A stretch of 64,000 nt of DNA from Escherichia phage KEP4, in sequence record PP047754. The stretch is one strand, 5' to 3'. Under the pieces are notes generated by a model. It did not search any database. It was not told where the DNA came from and saw nothing but the letters and a program-made list of their open reading frames with translations. Numbering within the stretch: the stretch's first letter is position 1; each line of letters opens with the position of its first letter. The translations under genes and the position numbers were made by a program. Below are positions 720 through 29,695 of the stretch, piece by piece.

Positions 720-1298
720 TTATAGACCAAATTTAGTGCGCCACTTTTCAACTTTGTGTTCTATGGCATGTTCTACTTTAACGATCGTGTTGATATGGTT
801 TTGATTATACCCACACGCCAATTTAGCAGTATTGCGTATCAGATTTGAAACCAGGTCCACCATATTATCTTCTGAACGTTGAGGTTGGTTCAGTAAACGA
901 GTGATGCGGCCTTTGTAATGATTAACCATCGCAAGATATTTGTCTATAGTTTCAACACCACTACAGAACCAATAATCCTCCAACGTATGTTGGTTGAGAT
1001 CAGTTGTGTGATTGGCCGTAGCCAAAGCAAACACCATGGAGTCAAAGATTTCTTCTTTGGACATAGACCCATGTTGTTGAACTTGTTGATAATCCACAAC
1101 ATATAATAGATCCAGAGCCGAGATGATAACGTCCGCCACTTCACCGTTCAGGGGTTCGGATGCAGCGATTCCATAAAGCACATCTGATAGTTCACAAGAC
1201 TCTTCCACGAGTTTGCAATATACAAACACAGGAGAACGATTAGGATCGCGCTGGCTGAGTTCATATGATGTGTTGAAGATAGTTTTTAGATAATTCAT
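720..1298 (-). CDS. hypothetical protein; possible MazG-like NTP pyrophosphohydrolase
   Basis: 192-aa ORF; acidic EESCEL ... EVADVIISALDL pattern resembles the EExxE/ExxD metal-binding helices of MazG-type all-alpha NTP-PPases. Function is tentative. Confidence 0.5.
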   Translation of the reverse strand: MNYLKTIFNTSYELSQRDPNRSPVFVYCKLVEESCELSDVLYGIAASEPLNGEVADVIISALDLLYVVDYQQVQQHGSMSKEEIFDSMVFALATANHTTDLNQHTLEDYWFCSGVETIDKYLAMVNHYKGRITRLLNQPQRSEDNMVDLVSNLIRNTAKLACGYNQNHINTIVKVEHAIEHKVEKWRTKFGL

Positions 1299-13844: not shown

Positions 13845-13890
13845 GAAAGGGGAACGGGCTAATAATAACCCATTCCCCTTTATTGAAGAA
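13845..13890 (-). terminator. conserved intergenic hairpin element (terminator-like), copy 2
   Basis: AGGGGAACGGG ... CCCATTCCCCT stem with TAATAATAA loop and the same TTTATTGAAGAA flank as the 10858 copy. Confidence 0.45.
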
Positions 13891-13906: not shown

Positions 13907-14074
13907 TTACTTTTTCTTCAGCTCGTCCAGTTTGGCTTCGATTTGTTCCAGGATGTCTTTACCCTTCTGAACAATCACTTCACCGTCTTGCGCGTGTTTA
14001 CGAAAGACCAGAGCGCCAGCTACGAAGCCGACAACAACGCCAGGAAGCGCGTACACCAACAGATCTTGTAACAT
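13907..14074 (-). CDS. small membrane protein (55 aa)
   Basis: Hand-found ORF below the 60-aa track cutoff: MLQDLLVYALPGVVVGFVAGALVFRKHAQDGEVIVQKGKDILEQIEAKLDELKKK, one transmembrane helix plus a charged tail. Confidence 0.4.
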   Translation of the reverse strand: MLQDLLVYALPGVVVGFVAGALVFRKHAQDGEVIVQKGKDILEQIEAKLDELKKK

Positions 14075-14110
14075 GATAATATCCTCACTTTATAGGTGAG
14101 GATATTTATA

Positions 14111-15346
14111 TCAGCGCTTCAACAAAGACATGAGGTTTACACTGGTCGACTTCGGATTGTCCTCTATCTTTCGGACGGGCATTTTCAGATTAGTGTAAAC
14201 CTCAGATGGTTCCCAACGCGTACCCTGCTGTAAATGCCATATATGTAGAGGAACACCCGTCTCAAAGAACACAGGCATCTTCCACTTCTGGACGCCAGGA
14301 ACGTGCCCTGCAGGAGCTTTTTCGCACAACAGGGTATCTGGTAGCCAGAGTGAACGGGCTTCCCATAATGCCTTACAGGAGTATTCAGGCCAAATACGTT
14401 CCATATAATCGATCTCGTCCCATGTACGCTCGGCGTCCCACCCGATGTAACGGGTATTCTTCAGTCGGAAGAATTTCTTCAGCCAACAAGCACCGGAGGT
14501 CTCAAAGTTCAGACGATTGATAAACGTGATGTGGCCAAACTCTTCAACGCATTCCTGAAACGCTTTCTCAAGGTCGGTTTCGAGTATATCACATTCTTCG
14601 TCTGTAATAGGACAACCGTTGATCTTTTTCTTCCCGTGCTTGGTCACCCAGTCGTCACGGTTTGACAAGAATGCCGCGCCGTTGCGGTTGGACTCGCTGC
14701 CATCGCGGTCACGCAGCATGAACCCAGGGACGTCGATCTCCCACATGTTGCCGAATACCATGTTCAGGGCTTCCAGGAAGTTCCAGGCGCTCAGGCGGCC
14801 AAAGTATTTCCAGGACATCGCCGTGTCCCACAGATTCGTGAATTGGTGGACAGGGATATCCAATTCAAGCATCGGTCGGAATGCTTCCATCTGAGTACGC
14901 CCAGCCAGCCAATCAATGTAGGACTGAACACACGGGATCATCTTCGACTTACGGTAACGGCAATCGGTATCGAAGCGCATACGCTCAAAGTTCAGGTTGT
15001 ACCAATCAGAAAAGCGCTGCATCTCTTCTTTGGACTGAGGAGGCACAGGGAACTCACTGTAGATTGTCCATGGACCGATGGCGTTATAACAGCAGCCCCA
15101 AAGGAACGACATCCAGATCTTGCGCTCGATCTTCTCAAGCTGTGTGATGCCTTCAGTGACTTCGATCGCATAGTCCATCAGACGCATCTGCTGGTTGTGC
15201 TCTTCGGTGTAGGACAGCGCCTCCACCCAAGCCTTGAGCAGGTACATCCGATTCTCAGGCTTGCGATAGTCAACAGCCAGGTCAATCGGGTACTTCCATT
15301 CAGCCGGGGGCGCATAGCCAGTCGGCATTTTAGAAATGTTATTCAT
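14111..15346 (-). CDS. conserved protein of unknown function; candidate DNA-base modification enzyme (tentative)
   Basis: 411-aa Trp/Cys-rich ORF clustered with a P-loop kinase, a HAD hydrolase and the DNA polymerase. No motif-level assignment was possible by eye. Confidence 0.6.
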   Translation of the reverse strand: MNNISKMPTGYAPPAEWKYPIDLAVDYRKPENRMYLLKAWVEALSYTEEHNQQMRLMDYAIEVTEGITQLEKIERKIWMSFLWGCCYNAIGPWTIYSEFPVPPQSKEEMQRFSDWYNLNFERMRFDTDCRYRKSKMIPCVQSYIDWLAGRTQMEAFRPMLELDIPVHQFTNLWDTAMSWKYFGRLSAWNFLEALNMVFGNMWEIDVPGFMLRDRDGSESNRNGAAFLSNRDDWVTKHGKKKINGCPITDEECDILETDLEKAFQECVEEFGHITFINRLNFETSGACWLKKFFRLKNTRYIGWDAERTWDEIDYMERIWPEYSCKALWEARSLWLPDTLLCEKAPAGHVPGVQKWKMPVFFETGVPLHIWHLQQGTRWEPSEVYTNLKMPVRKIEDNPKSTSVNLMSLLKR

Positions 15347-15528
15347 CCGATTTTACTCCCGAGTTCAACACGGAACGCCAGATAGAAGAAAGTGGCGATA
15401 GATACAGGACATATCACCAAGAATGGGCGCTGTTGCACCCCTTCTGTGACCATGACGCCGACCAGCGAAACCGTAAAGATAACGAACATCAACATCATGA
15501 AGATAAAATCAACCTGCTTGATTTTCAT
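15343..15528 (-). CDS. small membrane protein
   Basis: 61-aa ORF, two hydrophobic segments. Confidence 0.4.
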   Translation of the reverse strand: MKIKQVDFIFMMLMFVIFTVSLVGVMVTEGVQQRPFLVICPVSIATFFYLAFRVELGSKIG

Positions 15529-15895
15529 CTTTCACTTCCTCTACAGGAGAAACAACTTCAGGCTCAGCTTCGGGAGCCAGCTGAATTTCTTCGGGGCTTA
15601 CTACGGGCTGTCCCAGAGACCAGATAGGCAGGAAACGACGATCATTCGTCACCAACCAAATTTGCTTGGCGGTTTTCGTCTTTTCGGAAATAAAATGCTG
15701 GGCATTGACTTGGGTACGAGCCAAACCCACCTGACGCCAAGAACCGAAATCCTTAGAAGAAGGATTGGTATTCAGTTGAAATTGTGGGACGATTTTATTC
15801 TGTTCCGGATAGTAACGGACAGCGTTAATCATCTTCGCATCACCACGGTAATCAATAGCAACAGCGACAACGTTGCGTGGAATGAGGATTTTCAT
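15509..15895 (-). CDS. hypothetical protein
   Basis: 128-aa ORF with acidic Pro/Glu-rich C-terminus. Confidence 0.5.
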   Translation of the reverse strand: MKILIPRNVVAVAIDYRGDAKMINAVRYYPEQNKIVPQFQLNTNPSSKDFGSWRQVGLARTQVNAQHFISEKTKTAKQIWLVTNDRRFLPIWSLGQPVVSPEEIQLAPEAEPEVVSPVEEVKDENQAG

Positions 15896-15896
15896 T

Positions 15897-16100
15897 TTAA
15901 TTCCTTTTGAAACTCTGAATTATGTTATAGACGAAAGGCGTTAATAAGATAGCACCCCCCAAATAATATAACGCGTAAACGTTCAATATTTCGGTTGAAT
16001 CCAACTCAACGATGCCCAAATATTTCATGACACCGACGAGCACAGCTGTGATACACATCACCAATCCGACGAACACAAAATATTTAGACATCTGTTTCAT
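15897..16100 (-). CDS. small membrane protein
   Basis: 67-aa ORF with two predicted transmembrane helices. Confidence 0.4.
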   Translation of the reverse strand: MKQMSKYFVFVGLVMCITAVLVGVMKYLGIVELDSTEILNVYALYYLGGAILLTPFVYNIIQSFKRN

Positions 16101-16102
16101 TT

Positions 16103-17008
16103 CTAACCCTTACTCAACAGGCCGAGAAGGGATACAGAGGACTTTGTTACCTCTCCCTTGGCGCTCGCCTTGGTTTTAGATTTGGTCACCTTCTCAGGGA
16201 CTCGATGCGCTAGAGGATCATCCCCACCGACTTCGCGCGTCATTGGGTCAGTTTCACAGAATCCGTAGAAATCTTTGATGTCCAGACCCATGGCGTGAAA
16301 CTCACCACGCATTTGATGATGAATAGCGTTGCCAATCACCCACAAAGGTGCATCAAACGGCATCATGGCTAATTCGCTATCATTTCCTGTTTTGAATTCT
16401 TGAGTGTTTGTAGGCGATTGACGATACAACACGTCTTGCCCGCTGTAGTCATTGACCACCACTTCCCAACCCAGCACCAGCATTTCAGTCTTCGACTTCT
16501 CAAACTCCTTGGAGTAAGATTCGTTGCGTGACCAGCCGGAGTCCCCTGCTTCCTTACCAGAGCGACCACGGATGCGCGCATCATACTGATAGCGGTCTGG
16601 GTATGCAAAATAAAGCAACGCCAGAGATTCAATCGGATAGTTCTTGAACATCCATTCAGGACGCCATTTATCTGACAGCATGAGGGGTTCACCCTCGCAC
16701 ACCAAAGTGTAACCCTGAGCCAGCCAGCCTTTGACCAGATCACGGGCGATATCACCCGAGCCTGTGGCGGCGTGGATGGCGTCCATGGAAGTCCAGGAAG
16801 CCAGACCGGATTTGTTGGACACAGTATACTGGCCGACGAAGATTAACTTCAGCTCTTCGAATTTCAGGCCGAATGGGCGCGTCTTGTCACCAATGGTGTA
16901 GGTGAGTTCAGTAGGCTCCAGCTTAGTGCGGAGCCATTCGATGAACTGGACTACTCTCGTACCCTTGCCCACGCCACTTGTTCCTTTCACTACAATTATT
17001 TTAGCCAT
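16103..17008 (-). CDS. P-loop kinase (NMP-kinase-like Walker A)
   Basis: 301-aa ORF; N-terminal IIVVKGTSGVGKGT matches the GxxGxGKGT P-loop of nucleotide/nucleoside kinases. Confidence 0.65.
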   Translation of the reverse strand: MAKIIVVKGTSGVGKGTRVVQFIEWLRTKLEPTELTYTIGDKTRPFGLKFEELKLIFVGQYTVSNKSGLASWTSMDAIHAATGSGDIARDLVKGWLAQGYTLVCEGEPLMLSDKWRPEWMFKNYPIESLALLYFAYPDRYQYDARIRGRSGKEAGDSGWSRNESYSKEFEKSKTEMLVLGWEVVVNDYSGQDVLYRQSPTNTQEFKTGNDSELAMMPFDAPLWVIGNAIHHQMRGEFHAMGLDIKDFYGFCETDPMTREVGGDDPLAHRVPEKVTKSKTKASAKGEVTKSSVSLLGLLSKG

Positions 17009-17349
17009 TATGCATCTTCCTCAATACGCCAGCTCACACCGCCCAACCAGGGAGACCAGAAAACAGCAACCTGTGGGCGATCGTTTTCTACAAACTTCAC
17101 TTTATACTGGTCGTCGAAGTTATAGAAAATTTCATCGTCATCTGGTGCCATACCGTTTTCTATCAGAACACGCTTTAACTCCAGCGCCGCACCAACGGAA
17201 GTGGGTGTGGTTTGTTTACGAATGAAGTTGTTCACATGGATAATAACGCCATCCATATCGCTATCACCGGAACGCTTGTCTGGGGTTTCCCCAAACTTGG
17301 ATTGTTCTTGCACGATGTCCTCCTCAATGGACGTATTGATAATGGCCAA
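17008..17349 (-). CDS. hypothetical protein
   Basis: 113-aa acidic ORF. Confidence 0.45.
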   Translation of the reverse strand: MAIINTSIEEDIVQEQSKFGETPDKRSGDSDMDGVIIHVNNFIRKQTTPTSVGAALELKRVLIENGMAPDDDEIFYNFDDQYKVKFVENDRPQVAVFWSPWLGGVSWRIEEDA

Positions 17350-18106
17350 TCAGGCGGTTCACCACTTCGACAATATTGCGGTTCAGGAAGTCGAAGTGGT
17401 TCTGGCCTTCGACTGGTTTAATATAAAGCATATCTTCCGAGTTCGAAAGATCCAGTTTTTCATAATTTCCCTGGGGAACAAAGATGACAAAAATATTGTT
17501 CATCGCACAGGGTTCAACGTATTTCGGGTTATCATCAATTAAAACATCACCTGCCAAAAGATGCTTTTCGTCGGTGCTGACAAACCCGTTGAAGATGCCA
17601 GGGAACTTGTCATAGACAAACTGGCGCTTGCTGCGCTCGTGTTCTGGCTCACACTTAGATACTGCGATCAATTCAACATTTTCAAAGTCTTCGAGAAGGA
17701 TCTTCTTCAGATTCACCAGGAACTCGTAAGCGCCTGGAAGCGGGTTCATCTTGGCATACAGGTCCGGCATGCGCCACCAATCCATAGGATCACGTCCTGT
17801 AGGTGAATCCATCCATTGACCAGCAACAAACACACGGCGCGTCAACCATGCTGGGTGAGCGCGTTCCCGCATGAGGATCGCCAAATCACCAGCATGAGCC
17901 ATATAGCACTCTTTGGTGATACGCTGGAAATCATTGGGATAATCATGACAACCCATGTTTTCAGCAGCAGCTTTTGAATTGGAAATATTAAACCAATCCA
18001 CCCAAGGGGAGAGGCTATCAACCAAAGTCAAGTCTACGTCTACCAGGATACGATACATTCCACCGATTTTAGAATTGGCATCATACAGACCAACATGATT
18101 ATTCAT
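17324..18106 (-). CDS. HAD-superfamily hydrolase (possible nucleotidase/phosphatase)
   Basis: ORF-track frame 17324..18166; start placed at the internal Met (18106) with GGAG upstream. Motif I hhhDxDxT present (ILVDVDLTLVD). Confidence 0.55.
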   Translation of the reverse strand: MNNHVGLYDANSKIGGMYRILVDVDLTLVDSLSPWVDWFNISNSKAAAENMGCHDYPNDFQRITKECYMAHAGDLAILMRERAHPAWLTRRVFVAGQWMDSPTGRDPMDWWRMPDLYAKMNPLPGAYEFLVNLKKILLEDFENVELIAVSKCEPEHERSKRQFVYDKFPGIFNGFVSTDEKHLLAGDVLIDDNPKYVEPCAMNNIFVIFVPQGNYEKLDLSNSEDMLYIKPVEGQNHFDFLNRNIVEVVNRLIGHYQYVH

Positions 18107-18443
18107 CAGACTTCTCCACTTGATCATAACCAGTTGCGGTGCATTGCTCTTCTGTGCAATCTGCATACAGAACCACAGAAGATTCCTTCACGTAAGTGGT
18201 ACAGTGATAGGTTTCATCTTCCTGGATGGAATCGTCATAATTGCAAACAGTTTGCAACGGACCAGGAGTGGTGTTATCCAACGCAGCATGTGCCTTGATT
18301 GTGTCTTCCATCTTATTCACCGCTTGCTGATTGGTGAACGTCGGCGCATCGAGGTCAACAGTAGACGCAACGTCCAGAAGGGTAGAGCATGCAGTGGTAG
18401 AGAAAGCCAGAGCACACACCAGAAGAATCTTATTGAGTTTCAT
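18099..18443 (-). CDS. predicted lipoprotein
   Basis: Start placed at MKLNKILLVCALAFSTTAC: signal peptide with lipobox-like STTAC, mature protein Cys-rich and acidic. Confidence 0.5.
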   Translation of the reverse strand: MKLNKILLVCALAFSTTACSTLLDVASTVDLDAPTFTNQQAVNKMEDTIKAHAALDNTTPGPLQTVCNYDDSIQEDETYHCTTYVKESSVVLYADCTEEQCTATGYDQVEKSDE

Positions 18444-18503
18444 AACAATACCTGTTGTCAAAGGGATAACAGGGGGAATTATATCCCCCTTTGGTTTATT
18501 GAA

Positions 18504-21500
18504 TCAACCTTTCTTGCCCATCATGGACAACAGATTAACTCGACGTTTATGAGACCAACCAACCACATCCAAGATAGACTGAATTGGCTCTATAAAGGTC
18601 TTTTCAAACGTGGTGTGGTAATCCACCCATTTATCCAATCCCAATTCTGGAGGAAGGAAGTCAGGGAAGGCTATGCGATCATTCCCCACAGGATTGCCAG
18701 GTTTCAGGTTGATGATTTTAACCTTATCGCCAGATTCGATAGGGGGAAGACCGAGATCTTCGTGCTTATCGATCAGCTTGTTGTACATAATACAAGCCTT
18801 GGCAGCAAAGTGCGTACCGCTGATGTAATTCCCGTTCGCGTCTAACCACTTCTCAATATCGCTTACACCAGATGCCTGAGCGATATCATCCACGGTGAGT
18901 TCCATATATTCCTTTTTGTATCCAGCGATTAATTCCTGAACCTCTGCCTCAGTACCGAGCAGGACTTTCTCATAACATTTAACCAGACGCTCACGACACC
19001 ACTCAGGAGTGGTTGATTTACGCGCTTCCAGACCTTTGAATTTGATCTTTGGCTTCTCATACTTGATGCCTTCGCTATCGTATACTGCCATGCAATACAT
19101 CTTCTTGGCTCGCCATACAGCAGACGATGCGATGACCTCACGTTCCCAGACCATGCGCTGCTCAAACCCGTTCATGGTATTACACAACAACTGCGCCCAT
19201 TCACTGGTTTTTGGCTGGTAATTCTCTTTGATCCATTGGTCAATGTTATCAACGAGTTTGTGATGGTCCTTTTCTTCAGGCCACAATTGCTTGACCAGGC
19301 GTTCAATGCAAATGTAGTTGGAGTCTGTATCACCTGCGATAACAAAATCCTGACCAGTAGTACCACAAAGTTTGTTCAGATAATCATCAGTGTGGCGTTT
19401 GTTCCATTTATTGATCAACTGGCCGGAAGTGGTAATTGCTTCAGCGATGTTGATGTTGAAGTATTCTTTAAACCAGACGTTAGAAATTGCACCATATCCT
19501 GCGTTCATCAAGATCTTCAGACCTTGTTGTAACGTATCTTGGGCAACTCCCAAATCTTCCCACTTGTGCATGACTTCAGTCAGGTGATCAAGGTCGATAT
19601 GCTTGTGTTCTTCATACCATTCAGGATCGTAGAAACGAGACTTCATGGCAGATTCAAGGTGGAAATCACCTTTAGACATTTCCTTACACCAACCAGCCCA
19701 TTGCTCATACTTCAGACCAGTTGCTTTCTCTCCTTTACGGTCAGCGTATATGCCTCGCATAATTTCGGAAAGGAAAGACATCTTCTCATTACTGAAGAAT
19801 TGAACGTTCGGGGTAAACGAAACGTTATATCGACGTAATGTTTCAAAATGGAATTCACCCAGCGCGACCAATTCATCAACAACTTGTATGCGTTCATCAA
19901 TAGCACGCTGCAGCTTGTCGTGAAGATTTTTGAGATGACGGCGCTTGTTCATAGGCGTTGTCATATCATTCATCGCTTTGGTCAATTCTTCACACATGGA
20001 CTCAATGATATCGCGACGTGTGTGCTTGTCAGAAACGATAGTCTCAGGACCAAGGTTGTATTGCTGTATGATGTGGGGATACAGGGAGTTTAAGTCCTCA
20101 GAGAATACCCAGAAATATATCCCTGGTGCAACCTCCATGACATATGCGCCTTCAAAGTCCGTTGGACCATCATATACACGCTGTATTTTAGGGACAATCC
20201 CCTTTTCATAAAGACGATAGTAACACATCGCCAGCCATGGTGCTACAGTCCCAAGACCGTCTTCATAGTTAGATTTGGTGCGATACGCCAATACGAACAT
20301 CAGCTGTATCAAACGCAGCTTTTGTTCTAAACGCCACACGAGTTTGACGTCTTTGATACCATATCGGGTGTGTTTGCAATAATCATTAAAATATAGATCA
20401 TACAATGACTTGCTTTCACTATAATCCAACTTCTTCTCACCGAGTTCACAATAAGCGATCCAATCCAGTGAGTATTTTTCGCGGGTTGTGTACGTGTGTT
20501 TCTTGTAAACTTGCATGTAGTCCATCATAGGACAACCCACGAATTGATAAGAAGTCACGTCGCCTTTACGGTCTTTGATGAAACGTTTCTTGAGTTTGCC
20601 CCAAGGACTGAGGCGCTCTGCCTGAGTTTCACCGAGAACCTGCGTAATACGTTCAACCAAGTACGGGCTATCAAACGTTTCGATGTTCCAGCCAGTCCAA
20701 CCATCAAATTGACGTTCAGACCAATAATCTAAGAAAGCGCGAAGAAGTTCTTGTTCAGTCGTGTATTCTTTGTATTCAACCTCAAGACCACCTATCTCTT
20801 CATCATTTGGATCATATTTGAATTTATGGCGATCCTTAGAACACGGCATACCCCAGACATAGAACTTGTTGGTGTTCATGTCTTGAAGCTGGATGAGCGT
20901 AATAGGGAAGGCGGCATTCATGTTCTGTGTGATCTTACCATTACTATCAATGATAGGGAACTGGTCAGTCACGTTGTTGGAAATAAAGGAACCTGGGAAG
21001 TGCTCTCGAACGAAATCATGGTTGGCCAACACTTGCTTATGGAATCGGCGAACACGCGCCTCGCTCCCCTTAAACGTGTGGGATTCAATCGTCGCGTGAG
21101 GAAATGGGCCTTTAGTCATTTCTCCATCGCGCCACCCAGCCGAGAAAACTTCGATATCCACGTTGGCGATGTGAATATTTGAGTAATCGGGGGTAATCAT
21201 CCCAGGAAAACTATGCGCTATGAATTGATATGCATAATCCGTTTGTCCGTAAACGGCAGCGCCTTCGACCTCCTTATATTCCTCCAGATAGTTGTCGGCG
21301 TCACGCATTGACGCAAATTTTTTAGACACCAACGGTTCATTGAGGAGGCCAATCTTTTCAACTTTGGAATAATCGGCTGTGGGTAAATACAAGGTGGGTT
21401 CGAATTTCTTACGCAACATACGGCGATTGCCGTTGTCGTCTGCAATACGAATCAGAAGGTCGTTACCCTGTCGGGCAACGTTCGTATAGAAAACAGTCAT
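18504..21500 (-). CDS. DNA polymerase, family B (T4 gp43-like)
   Basis: ORF-track frame extends to 21659, but the internal Met MTVFYTNV... at 21500 has a GGAG RBS and avoids overlap with the divergent gene. Exo I-like NVDIEVF and motif C IAGDTDSNYI present. Confidence 0.85.
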   Translation of the reverse strand: MTVFYTNVARQGNDLLIRIADDNGNRRMLRKKFEPTLYLPTADYSKVEKIGLLNEPLVSKKFASMRDADNYLEEYKEVEGAAVYGQTDYAYQFIAHSFPGMITPDYSNIHIANVDIEVFSAGWRDGEMTKGPFPHATIESHTFKGSEARVRRFHKQVLANHDFVREHFPGSFISNNVTDQFPIIDSNGKITQNMNAAFPITLIQLQDMNTNKFYVWGMPCSKDRHKFKYDPNDEEIGGLEVEYKEYTTEQELLRAFLDYWSERQFDGWTGWNIETFDSPYLVERITQVLGETQAERLSPWGKLKKRFIKDRKGDVTSYQFVGCPMMDYMQVYKKHTYTTREKYSLDWIAYCELGEKKLDYSESKSLYDLYFNDYCKHTRYGIKDVKLVWRLEQKLRLIQLMFVLAYRTKSNYEDGLGTVAPWLAMCYYRLYEKGIVPKIQRVYDGPTDFEGAYVMEVAPGIYFWVFSEDLNSLYPHIIQQYNLGPETIVSDKHTRRDIIESMCEELTKAMNDMTTPMNKRRHLKNLHDKLQRAIDERIQVVDELVALGEFHFETLRRYNVSFTPNVQFFSNEKMSFLSEIMRGIYADRKGEKATGLKYEQWAGWCKEMSKGDFHLESAMKSRFYDPEWYEEHKHIDLDHLTEVMHKWEDLGVAQDTLQQGLKILMNAGYGAISNVWFKEYFNINIAEAITTSGQLINKWNKRHTDDYLNKLCGTTGQDFVIAGDTDSNYICIERLVKQLWPEEKDHHKLVDNIDQWIKENYQPKTSEWAQLLCNTMNGFEQRMVWEREVIASSAVWRAKKMYCMAVYDSEGIKYEKPKIKFKGLEARKSTTPEWCRERLVKCYEKVLLGTEAEVQELIAGYKKEYMELTVDDIAQASGVSDIEKWLDANGNYISGTHFAAKACIMYNKLIDKHEDLGLPPIESGDKVKIINLKPGNPVGNDRIAFPDFLPPELGLDKWVDYHTTFEKTFIEPIQSILDVVGWSHKRRVNLLSMMGKKG

Positions 21501-24702: not shown

Positions 24703-25152
24703 TTAGGCTTCTCTGGTCGCCAACCCTGGCTTAAACACCACCATTTCCTCAACGTTATTGGCACTCATAGAGGCTATAGAATCGAACCCTTTGTTGATAA
24801 GTTCTTTCACATTATCATGTATCTTACCAGGCTTTATCCCCAACTCTCGCATTTTATTTTCCCACACCGAAACATTGTTGGAATCTATTACAAGAGTCTT
24901 CTTGGCCTTGACACGAAATGCCATGACAATAGGTTCACCAGATTGACGATAGCGCACGGCATTTTCTGCGTAGATCTGTGCCTTTTCTGGATCCCCCGTC
25001 AGGTAAAACCCAGCACCCATCGTACCAGAGTCAGTCTGGCCAAATTTTTCAAAATCAAAGATATCGAATTCAACATTAGACCCATGATACAAAACGATAT
25101 TCGTAAAATCAGGTAACGTTGATTCGCGATAAAATTCTAGAAAGGTTTTCAT
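24703..25152 (-). CDS. hypothetical protein
   Basis: 149-aa ORF; no confident motif. Confidence 0.5.
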   Translation of the reverse strand: MKTFLEFYRESTLPDFTNIVLYHGSNVEFDIFDFEKFGQTDSGTMGAGFYLTGDPEKAQIYAENAVRYRQSGEPIVMAFRVKAKKTLVIDSNNVSVWENKMRELGIKPGKIHDNVKELINKGFDSIASMSANNVEEMVVFKPGLATREA

Positions 25153-25191: not shown

Positions 25192-26385
25192 TTAGCTGGG
25201 GACAAACTCATTCACAGGGACATGTTCAGGTATTGATAATTCAGGACAAGCAGCTTTCATCGCTTCCAGATATGGCTTGCTACCCACGATCCAAAACAAT
25301 GAGTTCTCATTAAGCAATTCTGGTTTGTGTTCCTGTATCCATGTCATCACCTTCCCTTCATAACGAGGATGCAACTCAATATCTCCCCACTGGTAATCCA
25401 TGAGGTCGTTGTAACGAACCCAATTAGTGGTATGAAGATCCCAATGGTGTACCTCAAAGCGAGGAAGCACGATATCCGGCTCGTTCTTTGGCCTGATACC
25501 ACTTAGGAGGCCAGCCAGCGAAACGCTCTTAGAGGCATGCTGAAGATCCTTCTTACCATACACATAATCTGGGTTGTCGTGATAGCGACGAGTGAAATCA
25601 GTTATGTGAGGGAGGTTTGCTTGCTTACCGATAATGCGCAAACGACTTTCAATGAAATCTAATCGGTTAGGTCCAATCCCGATCAGATAGACATTCTTCA
25701 GATTTGGTTTCGGATGCATCGCTAAACCTGTCAGGATACTGGTGCATGAATTACAAGAACCAGCAGGAATGATCAGATCAGTGATATGGTCTGGGATATT
25801 GGCAACCTGCTCGCCACCCAGCATATGGAATCCAGCAATGCGTTCTGGTGAATGAACGGTATGATCCAATGTAATGCCATATTCCAGATAATACGCCTTT
25901 GGATTTAATTGTTCAATGAGTTTCTTACAGCGCGGCTGAATGGTGCTATTGTAACCAGATCCAACAAAGTTGAACTCACTACCAAACCATGCTGACATTG
26001 AAACCATATCATGATTCATGCATGTGGTTGGTTTAGTGGCACCCAGCACAGTGGTTGTCTTGCCGCCGAAATGCCGTGAGACTGCCGTCGCCATAGGGGA
26101 CTGCGGACTACCAACTACAGTACCATGGATAAGATCTGGGGATCCTCCAGCTTTCAGATGCTCCATCATGAGCCAGATGGCCTGGCGGAGTTTGCTGCCA
26201 TTGATCCCCTGCTTGCCATTCATATAGCATGACAAAGGCGCGAAGTAATCTTCACGTTTGAACCAAACCTGCTGATTGGTTTCTGGATTGGCAATAAGTT
26301 CGCACGGGGTGTGTTTGTAGAGATAGTCTTCCCAGTGAACCAGATTACGGTCGAGGGAAAGGGTATCGAAGATGGTTTTGTTCAT
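25192..26385 (-). CDS. PLP-dependent enzyme, fold type II (Trp-synthase-beta/ACC-deaminase-like), tentative
   Basis: 397-aa ORF; candidate PLP-lysine motif NGSKLRQA and a loop IIPAGSCNSCTSILTG resembling the VVCSVTGSTQAG loop of ACC-deaminase/D-cysteine desulfhydrase enzymes. Confidence 0.45.
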   Translation of the reverse strand: MNKTIFDTLSLDRNLVHWEDYLYKHTPCELIANPETNQQVWFKREDYFAPLSCYMNGKQGINGSKLRQAIWLMMEHLKAGGSPDLIHGTVVGSPQSPMATAVSRHFGGKTTTVLGATKPTTCMNHDMVSMSAWFGSEFNFVGSGYNSTIQPRCKKLIEQLNPKAYYLEYGITLDHTVHSPERIAGFHMLGGEQVANIPDHITDLIIPAGSCNSCTSILTGLAMHPKPNLKNVYLIGIGPNRLDFIESRLRIIGKQANLPHITDFTRRYHDNPDYVYGKKDLQHASKSVSLAGLLSGIRPKNEPDIVLPRFEVHHWDLHTTNWVRYNDLMDYQWGDIELHPRYEGKVMTWIQEHKPELLNENSLFWIVGSKPYLEAMKAACPELSIPEHVPVNEFVPS

Positions 26386-26454: not shown

Positions 26455-27156
26455 TTACTTCTTGAACAGACGAAGGAACTTCATCATGTTATCCATGAAA
26501 GTCGGCTTCTCGACCTTTTGTTTTACCGGAGCGCCCTGATCATTCAGAACACGACTGGCCGGAGGAGTAGGCGGTGTCGGGATTGAACTGTCATGTTTAA
26601 CAACCGGAGCACCACTGGCCAGAGGAGTTGGCTTCAAAGATTTAATTGCCTGATTCAAATCGGAATTATCCACGACACCCACTTCTTCACCGACCGTAAC
26701 GCATGGTTTGATCAGAACGGATTTCTTAGACTGCTCATACTGATGAGCGATGTCCAGATATTTCTTGCGCTCTGTGTAGAAATCAACATTCTTTACTTTA
26801 CGGCGGCGAGCAGTAGAACTCTCTTCACCATAGAAATCATAACCATTTTTGAATAACCAATTCACGGCTTGCTCAAATGTGTTGAACACCATATACAGAC
26901 CGCGTCGACCATTTACCATGTCGTCTTCGCTGGAATAACCAATGAATACCGCTTGCCCTTTCTTGTTGATATCAAAAGGAGTACACACACCAGTTTCTTC
27001 AAGTGATCGCGGAGCAAGATGCCCGTCCCGATAGATATATGCCGGATACAAGAACTCATTAAGAGTACGTTTGTTCCCTTTGTATGTGTACAGGCGAGCA
27101 AATGGAGGCAGGTCACAAACGACATCGTTGTAATCCCAAATCGTAACATTACGCAT
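26455..27156 (-). CDS. hypothetical protein
   Basis: 233-aa ORF with Pro/Thr-rich linker and basic C-terminus. Confidence 0.5.
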   Translation of the reverse strand: MRNVTIWDYNDVVCDLPPFARLYTYKGNKRTLNEFLYPAYIYRDGHLAPRSLEETGVCTPFDINKKGQAVFIGYSSEDDMVNGRRGLYMVFNTFEQAVNWLFKNGYDFYGEESSTARRRKVKNVDFYTERKKYLDIAHQYEQSKKSVLIKPCVTVGEEVGVVDNSDLNQAIKSLKPTPLASGAPVVKHDSSIPTPPTPPASRVLNDQGAPVKQKVEKPTFMDNMMKFLRLFKK

Positions 27157-28373: not shown

Positions 28374-28462
28374 TGGCGGAAGGTGAAGGATTCGAACCTT
28401 CGGGGGCTAAAAGCCCCACTCGATTAGCAGTCGAGTCCCTTAAACCTCTCGGGCAACCTTCC
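28374..28462 (-). tRNA. tRNA-Ser (anticodon GCT), type II with long variable arm, CCA encoded
   Basis: Reverse complement folds as GGAAGGT/ACCTTCC acceptor, anticodon stem CTCGA/TCGAG with loop CTGCTAA, variable arm GGGGCTTTTAGCCCCC, T-arm GAAGG-TTCGAAT-CCTTC, discriminator G plus CCA. Confidence 0.8.
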
Positions 28463-29002
28463 AATTTGGAGCGGGAGAGCAGTCAGCTACTGGCCAACCC
28501 CTATGGCTCCCGCGAAATTAGGACGGGCTTCACACCCGATTGTGCATTTGATCTGCCGTAGCCCAACTCCCCGCGCTTATCAGCGCCGATTGGTTAACTG
28601 GCACCAGTGCCTTCTGGTTCGATCTCCTGGAACTTTACAGGCTTCGTGCCCGACCATTTCTGGAAGTTGGGGCATCGTTTCCGATGTGGAGTCACCCCAT
28701 TTTATACACAGCTGGCTGCAACGCTTACTGTGTTTGGTCTACCACCACGTGCTGGGCCACGCTTGAGGACATCGGCCATCCTTCCTCAGCTAATCCACGC
28801 GGTGGTAGATTTTGTATCAGAGTGTCCGGTGTAGCTTTCCGTGAGGTGCGCACTACTGTAGCCTCTACACTCTGAATTTGGTGGGCGTTACTTTCGTCGG
28901 GTTCGGATTCCGTTCGGCTATTGGACGTCGCTCGAGAGAACTTGTCGTTCGCGTACTTCGTGCTTACTTGCTTTCGTTTCACACCCATTGTTTGTCGTCG
29001 GG

Positions 29003-29023
29003 CGGGGGATTCAAACCCCAATC
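29003..29023 (-). ncRNA. tRNA-like T-arm fragment
   Basis: GGGG-TTTGAAT-CCCC motif in reverse complement followed by an acceptor-like strand; no matching 5-prime half. Confidence 0.2.
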
Positions 29024-29130
29024 TTTAGTTTGTGTTTCTTCAAAGCTATCATATGTTCACTTTGAATACTAGACTCCCCTGGACATCAAAACAGAATCTC
29101 TATTCCATCCTGCAAGACCCGACATAATCC

Positions 29131-29206
29131 TGGCGACGATGGCAGGACTTGAACCTGCGACATACGGTTTAACAGACCGCCGTTCTACCGACTGAACTAC
29201 ATCGTC
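29131..29206 (-). tRNA. tRNA-Asn (anticodon GTT), CCA encoded
   Basis: 76-nt cloverleaf: acceptor GACGATG/CATCGTC, D-arm GTTC-AGTCGGTA-GAAC, anticodon stem GCGGT/ACCGT with loop CTGTTAA, T-arm GCAGG-TTCAAGT-CCTGC, discriminator G plus CCA. Confidence 0.85.
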
Positions 29207-29619
29207 ATTTATTCTTACTTTCGTAAACATTCTTTATTTTGCATGAAGACCCAGGGCAGGATCATAACGATCGTAAGTTTTTGGATGAGACCCGTTCTTG
29301 ATGCTCACCATCCGACCTTCCCAACTAGCGCGAATTCTGTTGGAAATCACCACCCAAATATTCTTCATAATATAGAACCCTTCAACTATGTTTATTCGCT
29401 TCGATCGCCCTTAATTGGGCGTCCGCGTCAGCTTTGGTGTCATGTGTCCCAAGAACTTTAGTCTTGGTGTGGTCAAGGACAACCCACTTATCGCCTCGCT
29501 TTTCAACAAACTCAACAATCTCTTTGTTGTCAGTAGCGAGGCCATCCCACTCAGTAAGAAACTCACCGAACGTTTTCATCATACTCACCAATTGTTTATT
29601 GAACAACTGGTTTATTTAG

Positions 29620-29695
29620 TGGTGACCCTGGCTGGACTTGAACCAGCGACCAATCGATTATGAGTCGACTGCTCTAACCACTGAGCTACGGGGCC
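29620..29695 (-). tRNA. tRNA-Met (anticodon CAT; elongator Met or lysidine-Ile type), CCA encoded
   Basis: 76-nt cloverleaf: acceptor GGCCCCG/CAGGGTC (one mismatch, one GU), D-arm GCTC-AGTGGTTA-GAGC, anticodon stem GTCGA/TCGAT with loop CTCATAA, T-arm GCTGG-TTCAAGT-CCAGC. Confidence 0.8.

What the first reader, a model, noticed from the sequence alone, without database searches (positions are those of the whole stretch)
14111..18106. Candidate DNA-base hypermodification module next to the DNA polymerase
A P-loop kinase with an NMP-kinase-type Walker A (16103..17008), a HAD phosphatase-like protein (17324..18106), a conserved 411-aa protein of unknown function (14111..15346) and three tiny membrane proteins sit immediately downstream of the polymerase. 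Kinase/transferase sets of this kind in ViI-like and related phages convert 5-hydroxymethyl-dU in DNA to hypermodified thymidines via a 5-hmdU DNA kinase and aGPT-Pplase-type transferases. I could not confirm aGPT-Pplase signatures by eye.
Basis: inference. Interest (0 to 1): 0.7.

Follow-up and report, generated by a model that had tools for sequence, protein, structure and literature searches.

The report
Known thymidine hypermodification genes, clamp-tail motif
These genes are the already-characterised machinery that ViI-like Salmonella phages use to decorate thymine in their DNA, but its DNA-acting enzymes all carry the same short tail as the phage DNA polymerase, which suggests (untested) that they ride the replication sliding clamp.

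Summary
The system itself is already known.

**What the window is:** a Kuttervirus (Ackermannviridae), 100% identical over 14000-18500 to Salmonella phages SFP10 and GG32.

**The genes:**
- The 301-aa protein is the orthologue of ViI gp243, a 5-hmdU DNA kinase (Pfam HMUD2, 85% identity).
- The 411-aa protein is the orthologue of ViI gp247, the serine:DNA transferase (Pfam ADDT, 92% identity). The catalytic Glu-Thr-x-x-x-Cys is conserved.
- The third enzyme, the PLP decarboxylase (gp226 orthologue), lies outside the stated range at 25192-26385.
- The HAD protein is an NT5C-type deoxyribonucleotidase. Its role is inferred only.
- The small ORFs are lineage-specific and show no link to the pathway.

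**What I did not find in the literature I could search:** polymerase, kinase, transferase, gp160-like protein and decarboxylase share a short hydrophobic motif. It is terminal in the first four and sits in an internal loop of the decarboxylase. The motif changes in step across five phage lineages:
- VNLLSMM type in Kuttervirus
- KKLW in Vibrio phages
- SLW and SLxDFF in two metagenomic contigs
- LGxFF in PhiW-14

In two lineages it is shared with gp33 homologues. It is absent from phages where no T4-type replisome was seen. This fits a T4-type sliding-clamp-binding motif. Binding is untested.

The parts
18504..21500 (-). Family-B (T4 gp43-like) DNA polymerase. It heads the co-directional gene block. 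The C-terminal tail is ...KRRVNLLSMMGKKG.
   Evidence: Pfam DNA_pol_B_exo1 and DNA_pol_B. Start taken from the ViI annotation, 998 aa.
18516..18536 (-). Polymerase tail motif VNLLSMM (residues 989-995). It is the reference copy of the proposed sliding-clamp-binding motif.
   Evidence: By analogy with the T4 gp43 tail SLDFLFG, which matches the T4 gp55 motif (PMC7892883).
18099..18443 (-). DUF7292 protein with a signal or lipoprotein-like N-terminus. No evidence for a role in modification.
   Evidence: Pfam DUF7292 E 2.9e-53. No homologue in the Vibrio or metagenome loci by tblastn.
17324..18106 (-). HAD-superfamily NT5C-type 5'(3')-deoxyribonucleotidase-like protein (260 aa). Motif I is D23/D25/T27 (18026-18040); the DD motif is at residues 191-192. 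It has no clamp-type tail.
   Evidence: Pfam NT5C 32.7 bits against a cut-off of 24.8. PDB sequence hits to 3bwv and mdN. Invariant residues in A2. AF2 model with pLDDT 88, whose top fold hits are cdN, mdN and 3bwv. 86% identical to ViI orf00239.
17008..17313 (-). DUF7254 protein (101 aa). Function unknown.
   Evidence: Pfam DUF7254 E 3e-50. No homologue found in the distant loci.
16103..17008 (-). 5-hmdU DNA kinase, HMUD2 type (orthologue of ViI gp243). The Walker A sequence GTSGVGKGT is at 16958-16984.
   Evidence: Pfam HMUD2 E 3.5e-149, covering 1-300 of the protein and 1-298 of the 298-position profile. 85% identical to ViI gp243. Activity of gp243 is shown in PMC8989533.
16115..16135 (-). 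Kinase tail motif VSLLGLL (residues 292-298). It follows a Lys/Ser/Thr-rich linker.
15897..16100 (-). 67-aa hydrophobic protein (ViI orf00244 equivalent). No evidence for a role.
15509..15895 (-). 128-aa protein of unknown function (phrog_4163).
15343..15528 (-). 61-aa hydrophobic protein (phrog_7943). It is not annotated in ViI, where the kinase-to-transferase spacing is about 214 bp shorter.
14111..15346 (-). Amino acid:DNA transferase (aGPT-Pplase clade 2). It is the orthologue of ViI gp247, the serine:DNA transferase. Catalytic E282-T283...C287 lies at 14486-14503.
   Evidence: Pfam ADDT E 2.8e-61. 92% identical to gp247. E282, T283 and C287 are invariant and align with PaMx11 gp46 E243, T244 and C247. 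AF2 model with pLDDT 91.6, whose top PDB fold hit is gp46, entry 8z2m.
14120..14140 (-). Transferase tail motif VNLMSLL (residues 403-409). It sits after a predicted disordered linker (residues 388-404, pLDDT below 50).
13907..14074 (-). 55-aa protein with one hydrophobic segment. It is the last ORF of the block.
13846..13881 (-). Terminator-like hairpin (16-bp stem, then CTTTTT). It probably marks the end of the transcription unit.
   Evidence: This is a consensus scan only.
25192..26385 (-). PLP-dependent decarboxylase, orthologue of ViI gp226. It converts O-serinyl-T to 5-NeOmdU. It lies outside the finding's range but belongs to the same pathway.
   Evidence: 93% identical to gp226. Pfam PALP is below cut-off, 31.4 against 35. 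gp226 activity is shown in PMC8989533.
25504..25527 (-). Internal loop motif SVSLAGLL (residues 287-294) of the decarboxylase.
   Evidence: In alignment A4 this loop aligns with KPKTRRLF and KPKTRKLF in the Vibrio-phage homologues, which is that lineage's tail motif.

Best explanation
**Shown by orthology to characterised enzymes.** This is the post-replicative half of the 5-NeOmdU (5-(2-aminoethoxy)methyl-deoxyuridine) pathway of ViI-like phages.
1. The phage replicates with 5-hmdUTP. This is made by a ThyA-like dUMP hydroxymethylase encoded outside the window.
2. The HMUD2 kinase (16103-17008) phosphorylates 5-hmdU in DNA to 5-PmdU.
3. The amino acid:DNA transferase (14111-15346) uses its Cys/Glu site to displace the phosphate and attach serine through its hydroxyl group.
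4. The PLP enzyme (25192-26385) decarboxylates O-serinyl-T to 5-NeOmdU. The modified base hinders restriction enzymes.

**Inferred, about 0.5.** The NT5C/HAD protein (17324-18106) acts on free deoxynucleotides, as a dTMP/dUMP-type 5'-nucleotidase, rather than on DNA.

**Inferred from sequence covariation, about 0.7. I did not find it in the literature I could search.** The DNA-acting enzymes carry the same short hydrophobic peptide as the C-terminus of the phage's T4-type DNA polymerase. In T4-family phages that position is the sliding-clamp-binding motif. The enzymes would therefore be tethered to the gp45-like clamp on newly made DNA. The trimeric clamp could hold several of them at once.

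**No detectable link to the pathway.** The small membrane proteins, DUF7254, DUF7292 and the 128-aa protein.
For: **Identity of the enzymes**
- Pfam HMUD2 E 3.5e-149, ADDT E 2.8e-61 and NT5C above its cut-off.
- 85%, 92% and 93% identity to ViI gp243, gp247 and gp226.
- The activities of those three ViI proteins were shown with purified protein (PMC8989533).
- Catalytic E282, T283 and C287 are invariant and align with PaMx11 gp46 E243, T244 and C247.
- The AADT model's best PDB fold match is the gp46 crystal structure.
- GG32 is 100% identical to window 14000-18500 and 99.6% to window 1-25000. It also has the ThyA-like gene, an HMUD1 kinase, a dNMP kinase and a gp160-like gene.
- 5-NeOmdU has been measured in ViI and CBA120, and the genes are reported as conserved across the family (PMC11721090).

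**Clamp motif**
- *ViI ranking.* The C-terminal 16 residues of 736 ORFs were scored with the polymerase heptapeptide alone. The top five were polymerase, Vi01_049c, gp247, gp243 and gp160.
- *Vibrio phage D493.* T[KR][KR]L[WF] occurs 6 times in 95,216 residues, against 0.48 expected. The six are the gp33 homologue, a 99-aa Zn-ribbon protein, kinase 2, AADT, the gp160-like protein, and an internal loop of the PLP enzyme. The polymerase ends in ARKLW.
- *Further lineages with their own shared motif.* Contig L013: polymerase ALW, kinases DLW and SLW, AADT ALW, gp160-like SLW. Contig L011: polymerase SLEDFFS, AADT SLFDF. PhiW-14: polymerase KLGAFF, gp33 SLGGFA, kinase GLGGFF, gp72 TLAQFA, gp109 GLGSFF.
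- *Negative cases.* No shared tail was seen in M6, PaMx11 or two TET/ParB-type contigs, where no T4-type replisome gene was seen.
- *Soluble-substrate enzymes.* ThyA-like, dNMP kinase, MazG and HAD proteins lack the motif.
- *Structure.* The AF2 model places the AADT motif after a disordered linker.
- *T4 control.* gp43 ends in SLDFLFG and gp55 carries SLDFLY. Both are known clamp-binding motifs (PMC7892883).
- *Precedent.* T4 alpha-glucosyltransferase binds gp45 (PMC13216743).
Against: - No physical evidence of clamp binding exists, and I could not model a complex here.
- In Kuttervirus the gp33 and gp55 homologues do not clearly carry the VNLLSMM-type motif. gp33 ends in ...RLLKGELKSKKLI and gp55 has ...SLEDIMD.... 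The positive control is therefore clean only in D493 and PhiW-14.
- The N-terminal motif of kinase 1 (gp67, MSYSLKGLLKR) is not conserved in the Vibrio or Aeromonas homologues.
- T4 alpha-GT binds gp45 without such a tail, and that interaction was found not to determine modification levels.
- The kinases, transferase and decarboxylase each showed activity in vitro on 5-hmdU DNA without a clamp, so tethering is not essential for chemistry.
- The HAD role is weakened by NT5C genes that also sit next to TET/JBP-type clusters, where dTTP depletion would make no sense.
- Virion DNA of this particular phage has not been analysed.
Confidence: 0.85

Rival explanations
1. The shared tails are real but do not bind the clamp. 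They could bind another common partner such as the single-strand-binding protein, the helicase loader or a scaffold. They could also be basic DNA-binding or turnover signals.
For: - Binding was not tested.
- The linkers are Lys-rich and could contact DNA themselves.
- The Kuttervirus gp33 and gp55 tails do not clearly match.
Against: - The motif sits at the extreme C-terminus of T4-type family-B polymerases, the position of the proven clamp-binding peptide in T4.
- It is shared with gp33 homologues in D493 and PhiW-14. In T4, gp33's C-terminal motif binds gp45.
- Its pattern (polar residue, Leu, hydrophobic, any residue, two hydrophobic or aromatic residues) resembles the T4 motif SLDFLF.
- It was absent in the four phages or contigs where no T4-type replisome gene was seen.
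Confidence: 0.2
2. The 301-aa protein is an ordinary nucleotide kinase acting on free nucleotides. RefSeq records call it 'guanylate kinase' and one UniRef entry calls it 'thymidylate kinase'. On this reading it is not a DNA-base kinase.
For: - The annotations seen.
- PHROG 4409 is labelled guanylate kinase.
- The Walker A sequence is of the NMP-kinase type.
Against: - Full-length match to Pfam HMUD2.
- 85% identity to ViI gp243, which transferred phosphate to 5-hmdU in DNA in vitro.
- No PDB nucleotide kinase was detected by sequence, even at E of 1 or less.
Confidence: 0.03
3. The HAD protein is a dedicated step of the DNA pathway, for example a phosphatase that removes phosphate from 5-PmdU in DNA to set the fraction of modified bases. 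On this reading it is not a nucleotide-pool enzyme.
For: - It is conserved next to the polymerase or kinase in Kuttervirus, Vibrio phages and L013, and lies nearby in L010 and L011.
- Its cap insertion is larger than in cdN or mdN: 260 aa against about 195.
- Only part of the T positions carry the modification.
Against: - Its closest sequence and fold relatives are mononucleotide 5'(3')-deoxyribonucleotidases.
- Unlike every DNA-acting enzyme of the pathway, it lacks the polymerase-type tail.
- It was not among the five ViI lysates that were sufficient to reconstitute 5-NeOmdU.
Confidence: 0.1
4. The genes are present, but this phage's DNA is not hypermodified, or it carries a different adduct than ViI.
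For: - No chemical data exist for this genome.
- The modified fraction varies between relatives: about 40% in ViI and about 16% in phiHS2.
Against: - All ORFs are intact, with catalytic residues conserved at 85-93% identity to the ViI enzymes.
- The complete gene set is present in the near-identical GG32.
Confidence: 0.04

Closest known systems
Salmonella phage ViI (Vi01) 5-NeOmdU pathway: gp243/gp67 kinases, gp247 serine:DNA transferase, gp226 PLP decarboxylase (Lee et al. 2018, PMC5889632; Lee et al. 2021, PMC8989533)
   Same: - Same genus, and same gene order downstream of the polymerase.
- 85-93% protein identity.
- Same Pfam families and the same catalytic residues.
   Different: - There is an extra 61-aa membrane ORF between kinase and transferase.
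- No chemistry has been measured for this phage.
- The shared polymerase-type tails are present in ViI too, but the word 'clamp' does not occur in either paper.
PaMx11 gp46 (PUGT) and M6 gp51, the glycine:DNA transferases (structure 8z2m; PMC11472151)
   Same: - Same family (ADDT).
- Same Glu-Thr...Cys active site.
- PaMx11 gp46 is the best fold match of the AF2 model.
   Different: - Only about 19-20% identity.
- The amino-acid substrate is glycine, not serine.
- They are about 120 residues shorter and lack the C-terminal linker and motif.
T4-family sliding-clamp-binding motifs of gp43, gp33 and gp55 (PMC7892883)
   Same: - A short hydrophobic peptide on a flexible linker at a protein terminus.
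- The peptide is nearly identical among the clamp clients of one phage: T4 gp43 SLDFLFG and gp55 SLDFLY.
- Here the same logic links the polymerase with the modification enzymes.
   Different: - The clients here are DNA-base-modifying enzymes.
- The motif sequence differs (VNLLSMM type).
- Binding is not demonstrated.
T4 alpha-glucosyltransferase binding to gp45 (Sommer et al. 2004; PMC13216743)
   Same: A phage DNA-modification enzyme that physically associates with the phage sliding clamp.
   Different: - T4 alpha-GT has no polymerase-like tail.
- It is a single enzyme, not a multi-step pathway.
- The interaction was reported not to be the main determinant of modification level.
Mammalian cytosolic and mitochondrial 5'(3')-deoxyribonucleotidases (cdN, mdN; Pfam NT5C). 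From my own knowledge, also the dTMP nucleotidases of hmdU-containing Bacillus phages; PMC8989533 mentions a phage dTMPase.
   Same: - HAD fold with the DxDxT and DD motifs.
- They are the top sequence and fold matches.
- A role in depleting dTMP would fit the pre-replicative scheme described for hmdU phages.
   Different: - Only 14-19% identity, with a cap insertion about 65 residues longer.
- Substrate unknown.
- Homology to the Bacillus-phage dTMPases was not tested.

Membership tests
5-hmdU DNA kinase (5-HMUDK, Pfam HMUD2 PF18747) | Full-length match to the family profile above the curated cut-off | tested here: met
   496.4 bits against a cut-off of 25. The match covers residues 1-300 of the protein and positions 1-298 of the 298-position profile.
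5-hmdU DNA kinase (5-HMUDK, Pfam HMUD2 PF18747) | P-loop Walker A motif | tested here: met
   GTSGVGKGT at residues 9-17. It is also present in ViI gp243 (GTSGTGKGT, one substitution) and in the Vibrio homologues.
5-hmdU DNA kinase (5-HMUDK, Pfam HMUD2 PF18747) | ATP-dependent phosphorylation of 5-hmdU within DNA | not testable with these tools
   Shown for the 85%-identical ViI gp243 (PMC8989533). Inferred here.
Amino acid:DNA transferase (aGPT-Pplase clade 2, Pfam ADDT PF18724) | Match to the family profile above the curated cut-off | tested here: met
   207.7 bits against a cut-off of 26.2.
Amino acid:DNA transferase (aGPT-Pplase clade 2, Pfam ADDT PF18724) | Essential active-site Cys with a nearby Glu | tested here: met
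   E282, T283 and C287 are invariant in A1 and align with PaMx11 gp46 E243, T244 and C247. Mutation of the Cys or the Glu abolishes activity in gp247 and gp51.
Amino acid:DNA transferase (aGPT-Pplase clade 2, Pfam ADDT PF18724) | Helix-hairpin-helix, DNA-glycosylase-like fold as in the gp46 crystal structure | tested here: met
   AF2 model with pLDDT 91.6. The top Foldseek PDB hits are 8z2m and 8z2n, with probability 1.00 for the top two and TM-score 0.61 (normalised to the target) for 8z2m. AGOG and OGG glycosylases follow. The Foldseek E-value is only 0.025.
Amino acid:DNA transferase (aGPT-Pplase clade 2, Pfam ADDT PF18724) | Serine as the amino-acid donor, linked through oxygen | not testable with these tools
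   Inferred from 92% identity to ViI gp247.
NT5C 5'(3')-deoxyribonucleotidase (HAD superfamily) | Profile match above cut-off, plus the HAD catalytic motifs (DxDxT nucleophile motif, conserved Lys, DD) | tested here: met
   32.7 bits against a cut-off of 24.8. D23, D25, T27, K151/K160, D191 and D192 are invariant in 22 homologues.
NT5C 5'(3')-deoxyribonucleotidase (HAD superfamily) | Fold closest to cdN and mdN | tested here: met
   The top hits are 2jao, 3bwv, 1q92 and 6g2l, with E about 1e-7 to 1e-6 and TM-score 0.56-0.76 normalised to the target.
NT5C 5'(3')-deoxyribonucleotidase (HAD superfamily) | Dephosphorylation of deoxynucleoside monophosphates, and which ones | not testable with these tools
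Specificity for dTMP or dUMP is a guess from the preference of mdN (my own knowledge).
PLP-dependent decarboxylase of the gp226 type | Orthology to gp226 and the PLP-binding Lys | tested here: met
   93% identity. The Lys of GINGSKLRQ (ViI K92) is invariant in A4. Pfam PALP itself is below its cut-off, 31.4 against 35.
Complete ViI-type 5-NeOmdU pathway | dUMP hydroxymethylase (ThyA homologue), second kinase and gp160-like protein in the same genome | tested here: inconclusive
   They are not inside the 64-kb window. They are present in GG32, which is 100% identical to window 14000-18500 and 99.6% to window 1-25000: BI169_gp116 (Thymidylat_synt), gp115 (HMUDK_HMUD1) and gp048 (HMUDK_hel).
T4-type sliding-clamp-binding-motif (SCBM) clients | Short hydrophobic motif at a terminus or loop on a flexible linker, matching the tail of the phage's own family-B polymerase | tested here: met
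   Window tails, ViI ranking, four further lineages, linker disorder and the internal loop of the PLP enzyme.
T4-type sliding-clamp-binding-motif (SCBM) clients | Motif shared with established clamp clients (gp33, gp55) | tested here: inconclusive
   Met in D493 (gp33 ends in ...KTRKLF) and PhiW-14 (gp33 ends in ...SLGGFAAT). Not clear for the Kuttervirus gp33 and gp55.
T4-type sliding-clamp-binding-motif (SCBM) clients | Physical binding to the hydrophobic pocket of the gp45-like clamp | not testable with these tools

The most novel reading that the evidence does not exclude
All DNA-acting enzymes of thymidine hypermodification in phages with a T4-type replisome are sliding-clamp clients. These are the kinase, the amino acid:DNA transferase, the gp160/HMUDK_hel protein and the PLP decarboxylase. 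Each has acquired its own lineage's version of the polymerase's clamp-binding peptide. The multi-step conversion of 5-hmdU would then run as an assembly line on the trimeric clamp, right behind the fork. A small Zn-ribbon protein (ViI Vi01_049c, D493 0077) would be a further unknown clamp client. I did not find this idea in the literature I could search.
Probability: 0.65. Interest if true: 0.7.

Novelty: already known. Interest (0 to 1): 0.45.

Why it matters
As a gene identification the finding adds nothing new. The ViI pathway has been reconstituted, and reviews already state that it is conserved across Ackermannviridae.

The shared, co-varying polymerase-type tail would matter if confirmed, for four reasons:
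- It gives a concrete and cheap test of how post-replicative base hypermodification is coupled to replication.
- It may explain why only part of the thymines are converted, and why naked-DNA reactions in vitro were incomplete. Only about 23% of 5-hmdU was phosphorylated by M6 gp54.
- It suggests that adding clamp and clamp loader could improve enzymatic synthesis of modified DNA.
- It offers a simple sequence rule for finding new clamp clients, and new DNA-modifying enzymes, in T4-like phage genomes: a match to the polymerase's own tail.

Tried and rejected
- **PDB sequence search.** The transferase and the kinase found nothing, even at E of 1 or less. Only the fold search recovered gp46.
- **Promoter scan.** The number of sigma-70-like sites is no higher than in shuffled sequence, 25 against 23.4. 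I make no promoter claim. Only the 13846-13881 hairpin stands out.
- **Salmonella phage 38 locus (L009).** It was dropped because its polymerase, kinase and transferase are split into fragments, presumably by sequencing frameshifts.
- **Small proteins.** DUF7254, DUF7292, the 128-aa protein and the tiny membrane proteins have no homologue in the Vibrio, Aeromonas or metagenomic clusters by tblastn. In those clusters kinase and transferase are adjacent. I therefore rejected them as pathway components.
- **Kinase 1 (gp67).** The N-terminal SLKGLL of gp67 is not conserved in other lineages and remains uncertain.
- **Kuttervirus gp33 and gp55 tails.** They are not convincingly of the VNLLSMM type.
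- **T4 alpha-GT.** It has no polymerase-like tail, so it is a precedent for clamp association but not for the motif.
- **Papers not held.** Iyer et al. 2013 (PMC3763556) and Hutinet et al. 2021 (PMC11163837) could not be read. My statement that I did not find the motif reported is limited to the papers I could search.
- **Complex modelling.** A clamp-peptide complex could not be modelled.

Full report
**What the window is.** Positions 14000-18500 are 100% identical to Salmonella phages SFP10, GG32, STP07 and S117. Related sequence occurs in 277 phage records, mostly Salmonella, Klebsiella, Escherichia and Dickeya phages. Positions 1-25000 are 99.6-99.7% identical to phages kage, STP07 and GG32. 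The window is therefore a Kuttervirus (Ackermannviridae), the genus of phage ViI (Vi01). Gene order downstream of the polymerase matches ViI exactly: polymerase, orf00237, orf00239, orf00240, orf00243, orf00244, orf00245, orf00247, orf00248.

**Checking the observation.**
- The 301-aa protein has the Walker A sequence GTSGVGKGT.
- The HAD-like protein has DVDLT and DD motifs.
- Three proteins of 55, 61 and 67 aa have strongly hydrophobic segments.
- The genes are packed with gaps of -20 to +60 nt. The block ends in a 16-bp terminator-like hairpin at 13846-13881.

**What the two main genes are.**
- *The 301-aa protein.* It matches Pfam HMUD2 ('5-hmdU DNA kinase 2') end to end (E 3.5e-149). It is 85% identical to ViI gp243. 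Lee et al. showed that gp243, like gp67, phosphorylates 5-hmdU in DNA (PMC8989533).
- *The 411-aa protein.* It matches Pfam ADDT (amino acid:DNA transferase, E 2.8e-61). It is 92% identical to ViI gp247. Purified gp247 transfers serine through its hydroxyl group onto 5-PmdU, and it loses activity when the conserved Cys or Glu is mutated.
- *Active site.* In an alignment with ViI gp247, seven distant homologues, PaMx11 gp46 and M6 gp51, residues E282, T283 and C287 are invariant. They align with the gp46 active-site residues E243, T244 and C247.
- *Fold.* An AF2 model (pLDDT 91.6) has the gp46 crystal structure as its best PDB fold match, followed by HhH DNA glycosylases.

The RefSeq labels 'guanylate kinase' for this kinase and 'terminase small subunit' for the paralogous kinase are misannotations.

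**The rest of the pathway.**
- The PLP decarboxylase gp226 has a 93%-identical orthologue at 25192-26385 (minus strand). This is inside the window but outside the finding.
- gp67 (the HMUD1 kinase), the ThyA-like dUMP hydroxymethyltransferase, the dNMP kinase and gp160 lie outside the window. They are present in GG32.
- 5-NeOmdU replaces about 40% of T in ViI and CBA120, and the genes are described as conserved across the family (PMC11721090). A further Ackermannviridae phage was recently shown to carry it.

So the finding is correct and already known.

**The HAD protein.**
- It passes the Pfam NT5C threshold.
- It hits bacterial and mitochondrial 5'(3')-deoxyribonucleotidases in the PDB by sequence.
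- It keeps D23, D25, T27, K151/K160, D191 and D192 invariant across 22 homologues.
- It gives a confident model (pLDDT 88) whose top fold matches are cdN, mdN and 3bwv.
- Homologues sit next to the polymerase or kinase in Vibrio phages and in metagenomic contig L013, and nearby in L010 and L011.

A role as a dTMP/dUMP nucleotidase in the pre-replicative pool scheme is plausible; PMC8989533 mentions a phage dTMPase. It remains unproven. An NT5C gene also accompanies a TET/JBP-type cluster, where dTTP is needed. The protein was not among the five ViI lysates sufficient for reconstitution.

**The small proteins.** The small membrane proteins, DUF7254, DUF7292 and the 128-aa protein have no counterpart in the distant clusters. 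I treat them as lineage-specific passengers.

**An unexpected feature: a shared tail.** The polymerase, kinase and transferase of the window end in ...RRVNLLSMMGKKG...SSVSLLGLLSKG and ...TSVNLMSLLKR.
- In ViI, I scored the C-terminal 16 residues of all 736 ORFs of at least 50 aa with the polymerase heptapeptide alone. The ranking was polymerase, Vi01_049c (a 70-aa Zn-ribbon protein), gp247, gp243, gp160.
- GG32's gp160-like protein ends in ...SKNLLNLFKK.
- The PLP decarboxylase carries SVSLAGLL in an internal loop.

**The motif co-varies across lineages.**
- *Vibrio phages D493 and K444, and Aeromonas phage TSW001.* Where recovered, polymerase, kinase 2, transferase and gp160-like protein all end in [KR][KR]LW. 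TSW001's polymerase and kinase 2 were not recovered.
- *Whole D493 genome.* T[KR][KR]L[WF] occurs six times in 95,216 ORF residues, against 0.48 expected. The six are the gp33 homologue, a 99-aa Zn-ribbon protein homologous to Vi01_049c, kinase 2, transferase, gp160-like protein, and the PLP enzyme. In the PLP enzyme the motif sits at exactly the loop that aligns with the Kuttervirus SVSLAGLL.
- *Metagenomic contig L013.* Polymerase, two kinases, transferase and gp160-like protein all end in [ADS]LW.
- *Contig L011.* The polymerase ends in SLEDFFS and the transferase in SLFDF.
- *PhiW-14.* Polymerase, gp33 homologue, kinase gp37, gp72 and the putrescine transferase gp109 end in KLGAFF, SLGGFA, GLGGFF, TLAQFA and GLGSFF.
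- *Negative cases.* No shared tail was seen in M6, PaMx11 or two small ParB-TET-kinase-transferase contigs, where no T4-type replisome gene was seen.
- *Soluble-substrate enzymes.* ThyA-like, dNMP kinase, MazG and HAD proteins never carry the motif.
- *Structure.* In the AF2 model the transferase motif follows a disordered linker (residues 388-404, pLDDT below 50).

**Interpretation of the tail.** In T4-family phages, the extreme C-terminus of the polymerase and the termini of gp33 and gp55 are sliding-clamp-binding motifs. They insert into a hydrophobic patch of gp45 (PMC7892883). As a control, T4 gp43 ends in SLDFLFG and gp55 carries SLDFLY, so clients of one clamp do share one motif. The simplest reading is that the DNA-acting hypermodification enzymes are clamp clients.

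There is a precedent: T4 alpha-glucosyltransferase binds gp45. However, it does so without such a tail, and the interaction was reported not to control modification levels. I found no mention of a clamp link for thymidine hypermodification enzymes in the two Lee et al. papers or in four full-text searches. Two relevant reviews could not be read.

**Weak points of the tail hypothesis.**
- No binding data exist.
- The Kuttervirus gp33 and gp55 tails do not clearly match.
- The gp67 N-terminal motif is not conserved.
- The enzymes work in vitro without a clamp.

**Verdict.** The system is already known, as an 85-93% orthologue of a reconstituted pathway. The follow-up adds a well-supported but untested hypothesis of clamp tethering, which is the only part with real interest.

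Noticed in passing
ViI L002:30355-30567 (-) (Vi01_049c); Vibrio phage D493 L015:6591-6890 (+) (VPHD493_0077). Outside the window.: These are small Zn-ribbon-like proteins (CxC...CxxC, 70 and 99 aa) that are homologous to each other (E 2e-6). Each ends in its own lineage's polymerase-type tail, ...DKVNLLSLMRK and ...KPKTKRLW. They are candidates for an uncharacterised clamp client. In D493 the gene lies next to the DNA ligase gene.
   Followed up: partly
window 24703-25152 (-): A 149-aa protein with an ART-PolyVal ADP-ribosyltransferase domain (E 2.2e-10) and DUF3990. It lies immediately downstream of the PLP decarboxylase gene.
   Followed up: no
window 26455-27156 (-): A 233-aa protein (ViI Vi01_181 equivalent) just upstream of the PLP decarboxylase gene. 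It ends in a linker plus a hydrophobic tail: ...KPTFMDNMMKFLRLFKK here and ...SFFRRLMDFLTK in ViI. It may be another motif-bearing protein, but the match is too weak to call.
   Followed up: partly
window 15343-15528 (-): This 61-aa hydrophobic ORF (phrog_7943) lies between the 128-aa ORF and the transferase. It has no annotated counterpart in ViI, where the kinase-to-transferase spacing is about 214 bp shorter. It appears to be a small indel difference within the genus.
   Followed up: partly
window 28374-29695 (-): Three tRNA genes (Ser-GCT, Asn-GTT, Met-CAT) lie in a stretch whose ViI counterpart has no annotated CDS.
   Followed up: no
window 720-1298 (-): This 192-aa protein is the orthologue of ViI Vi01_011, annotated 'MazG-like pyrophosphatase'. 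It has no Pfam hit here. It could belong to the pre-replicative dNTP-pool control (a dTTP or dUTP pyrophosphatase).
   Followed up: no
Public records matching window 16103-17008 and the paralogous kinase (GG32 BI169_gp115; ViI Vi01_061c): There are systematic misannotations. The HMUD2 kinase is labelled 'guanylate kinase' and the HMUD1 kinase 'terminase small subunit' in RefSeq. In phage kage one ORF of this block is labelled 'putative thioredoxin', probably the DUF7254 protein.
   Followed up: yes
L007 and L008 (Vibrio phages D493, K444); L013: In these relatives the genes lie within roughly 10-13 kb: polymerase, HAD, kinase 2, transferase, gp160-like, (kinase 1), ThyA-like, dNMP kinase, pyrophosphatase. 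The PLP gene lies just upstream of the polymerase in D493 and K444. In Kuttervirus the same genes are scattered over three regions of the genome.
   Followed up: partly
L011 (10001-11167 and neighbours); L023; L024: Transferase homologues sit next to TET/JBP dioxygenase (with or without ParB) and a Ploopntkinase3-type kinase, instead of a ThyA-like hydroxymethylase. L011 belongs to a T4-like genome and keeps a polymerase-matched tail. The two small-phage contigs have none.
   Followed up: partly
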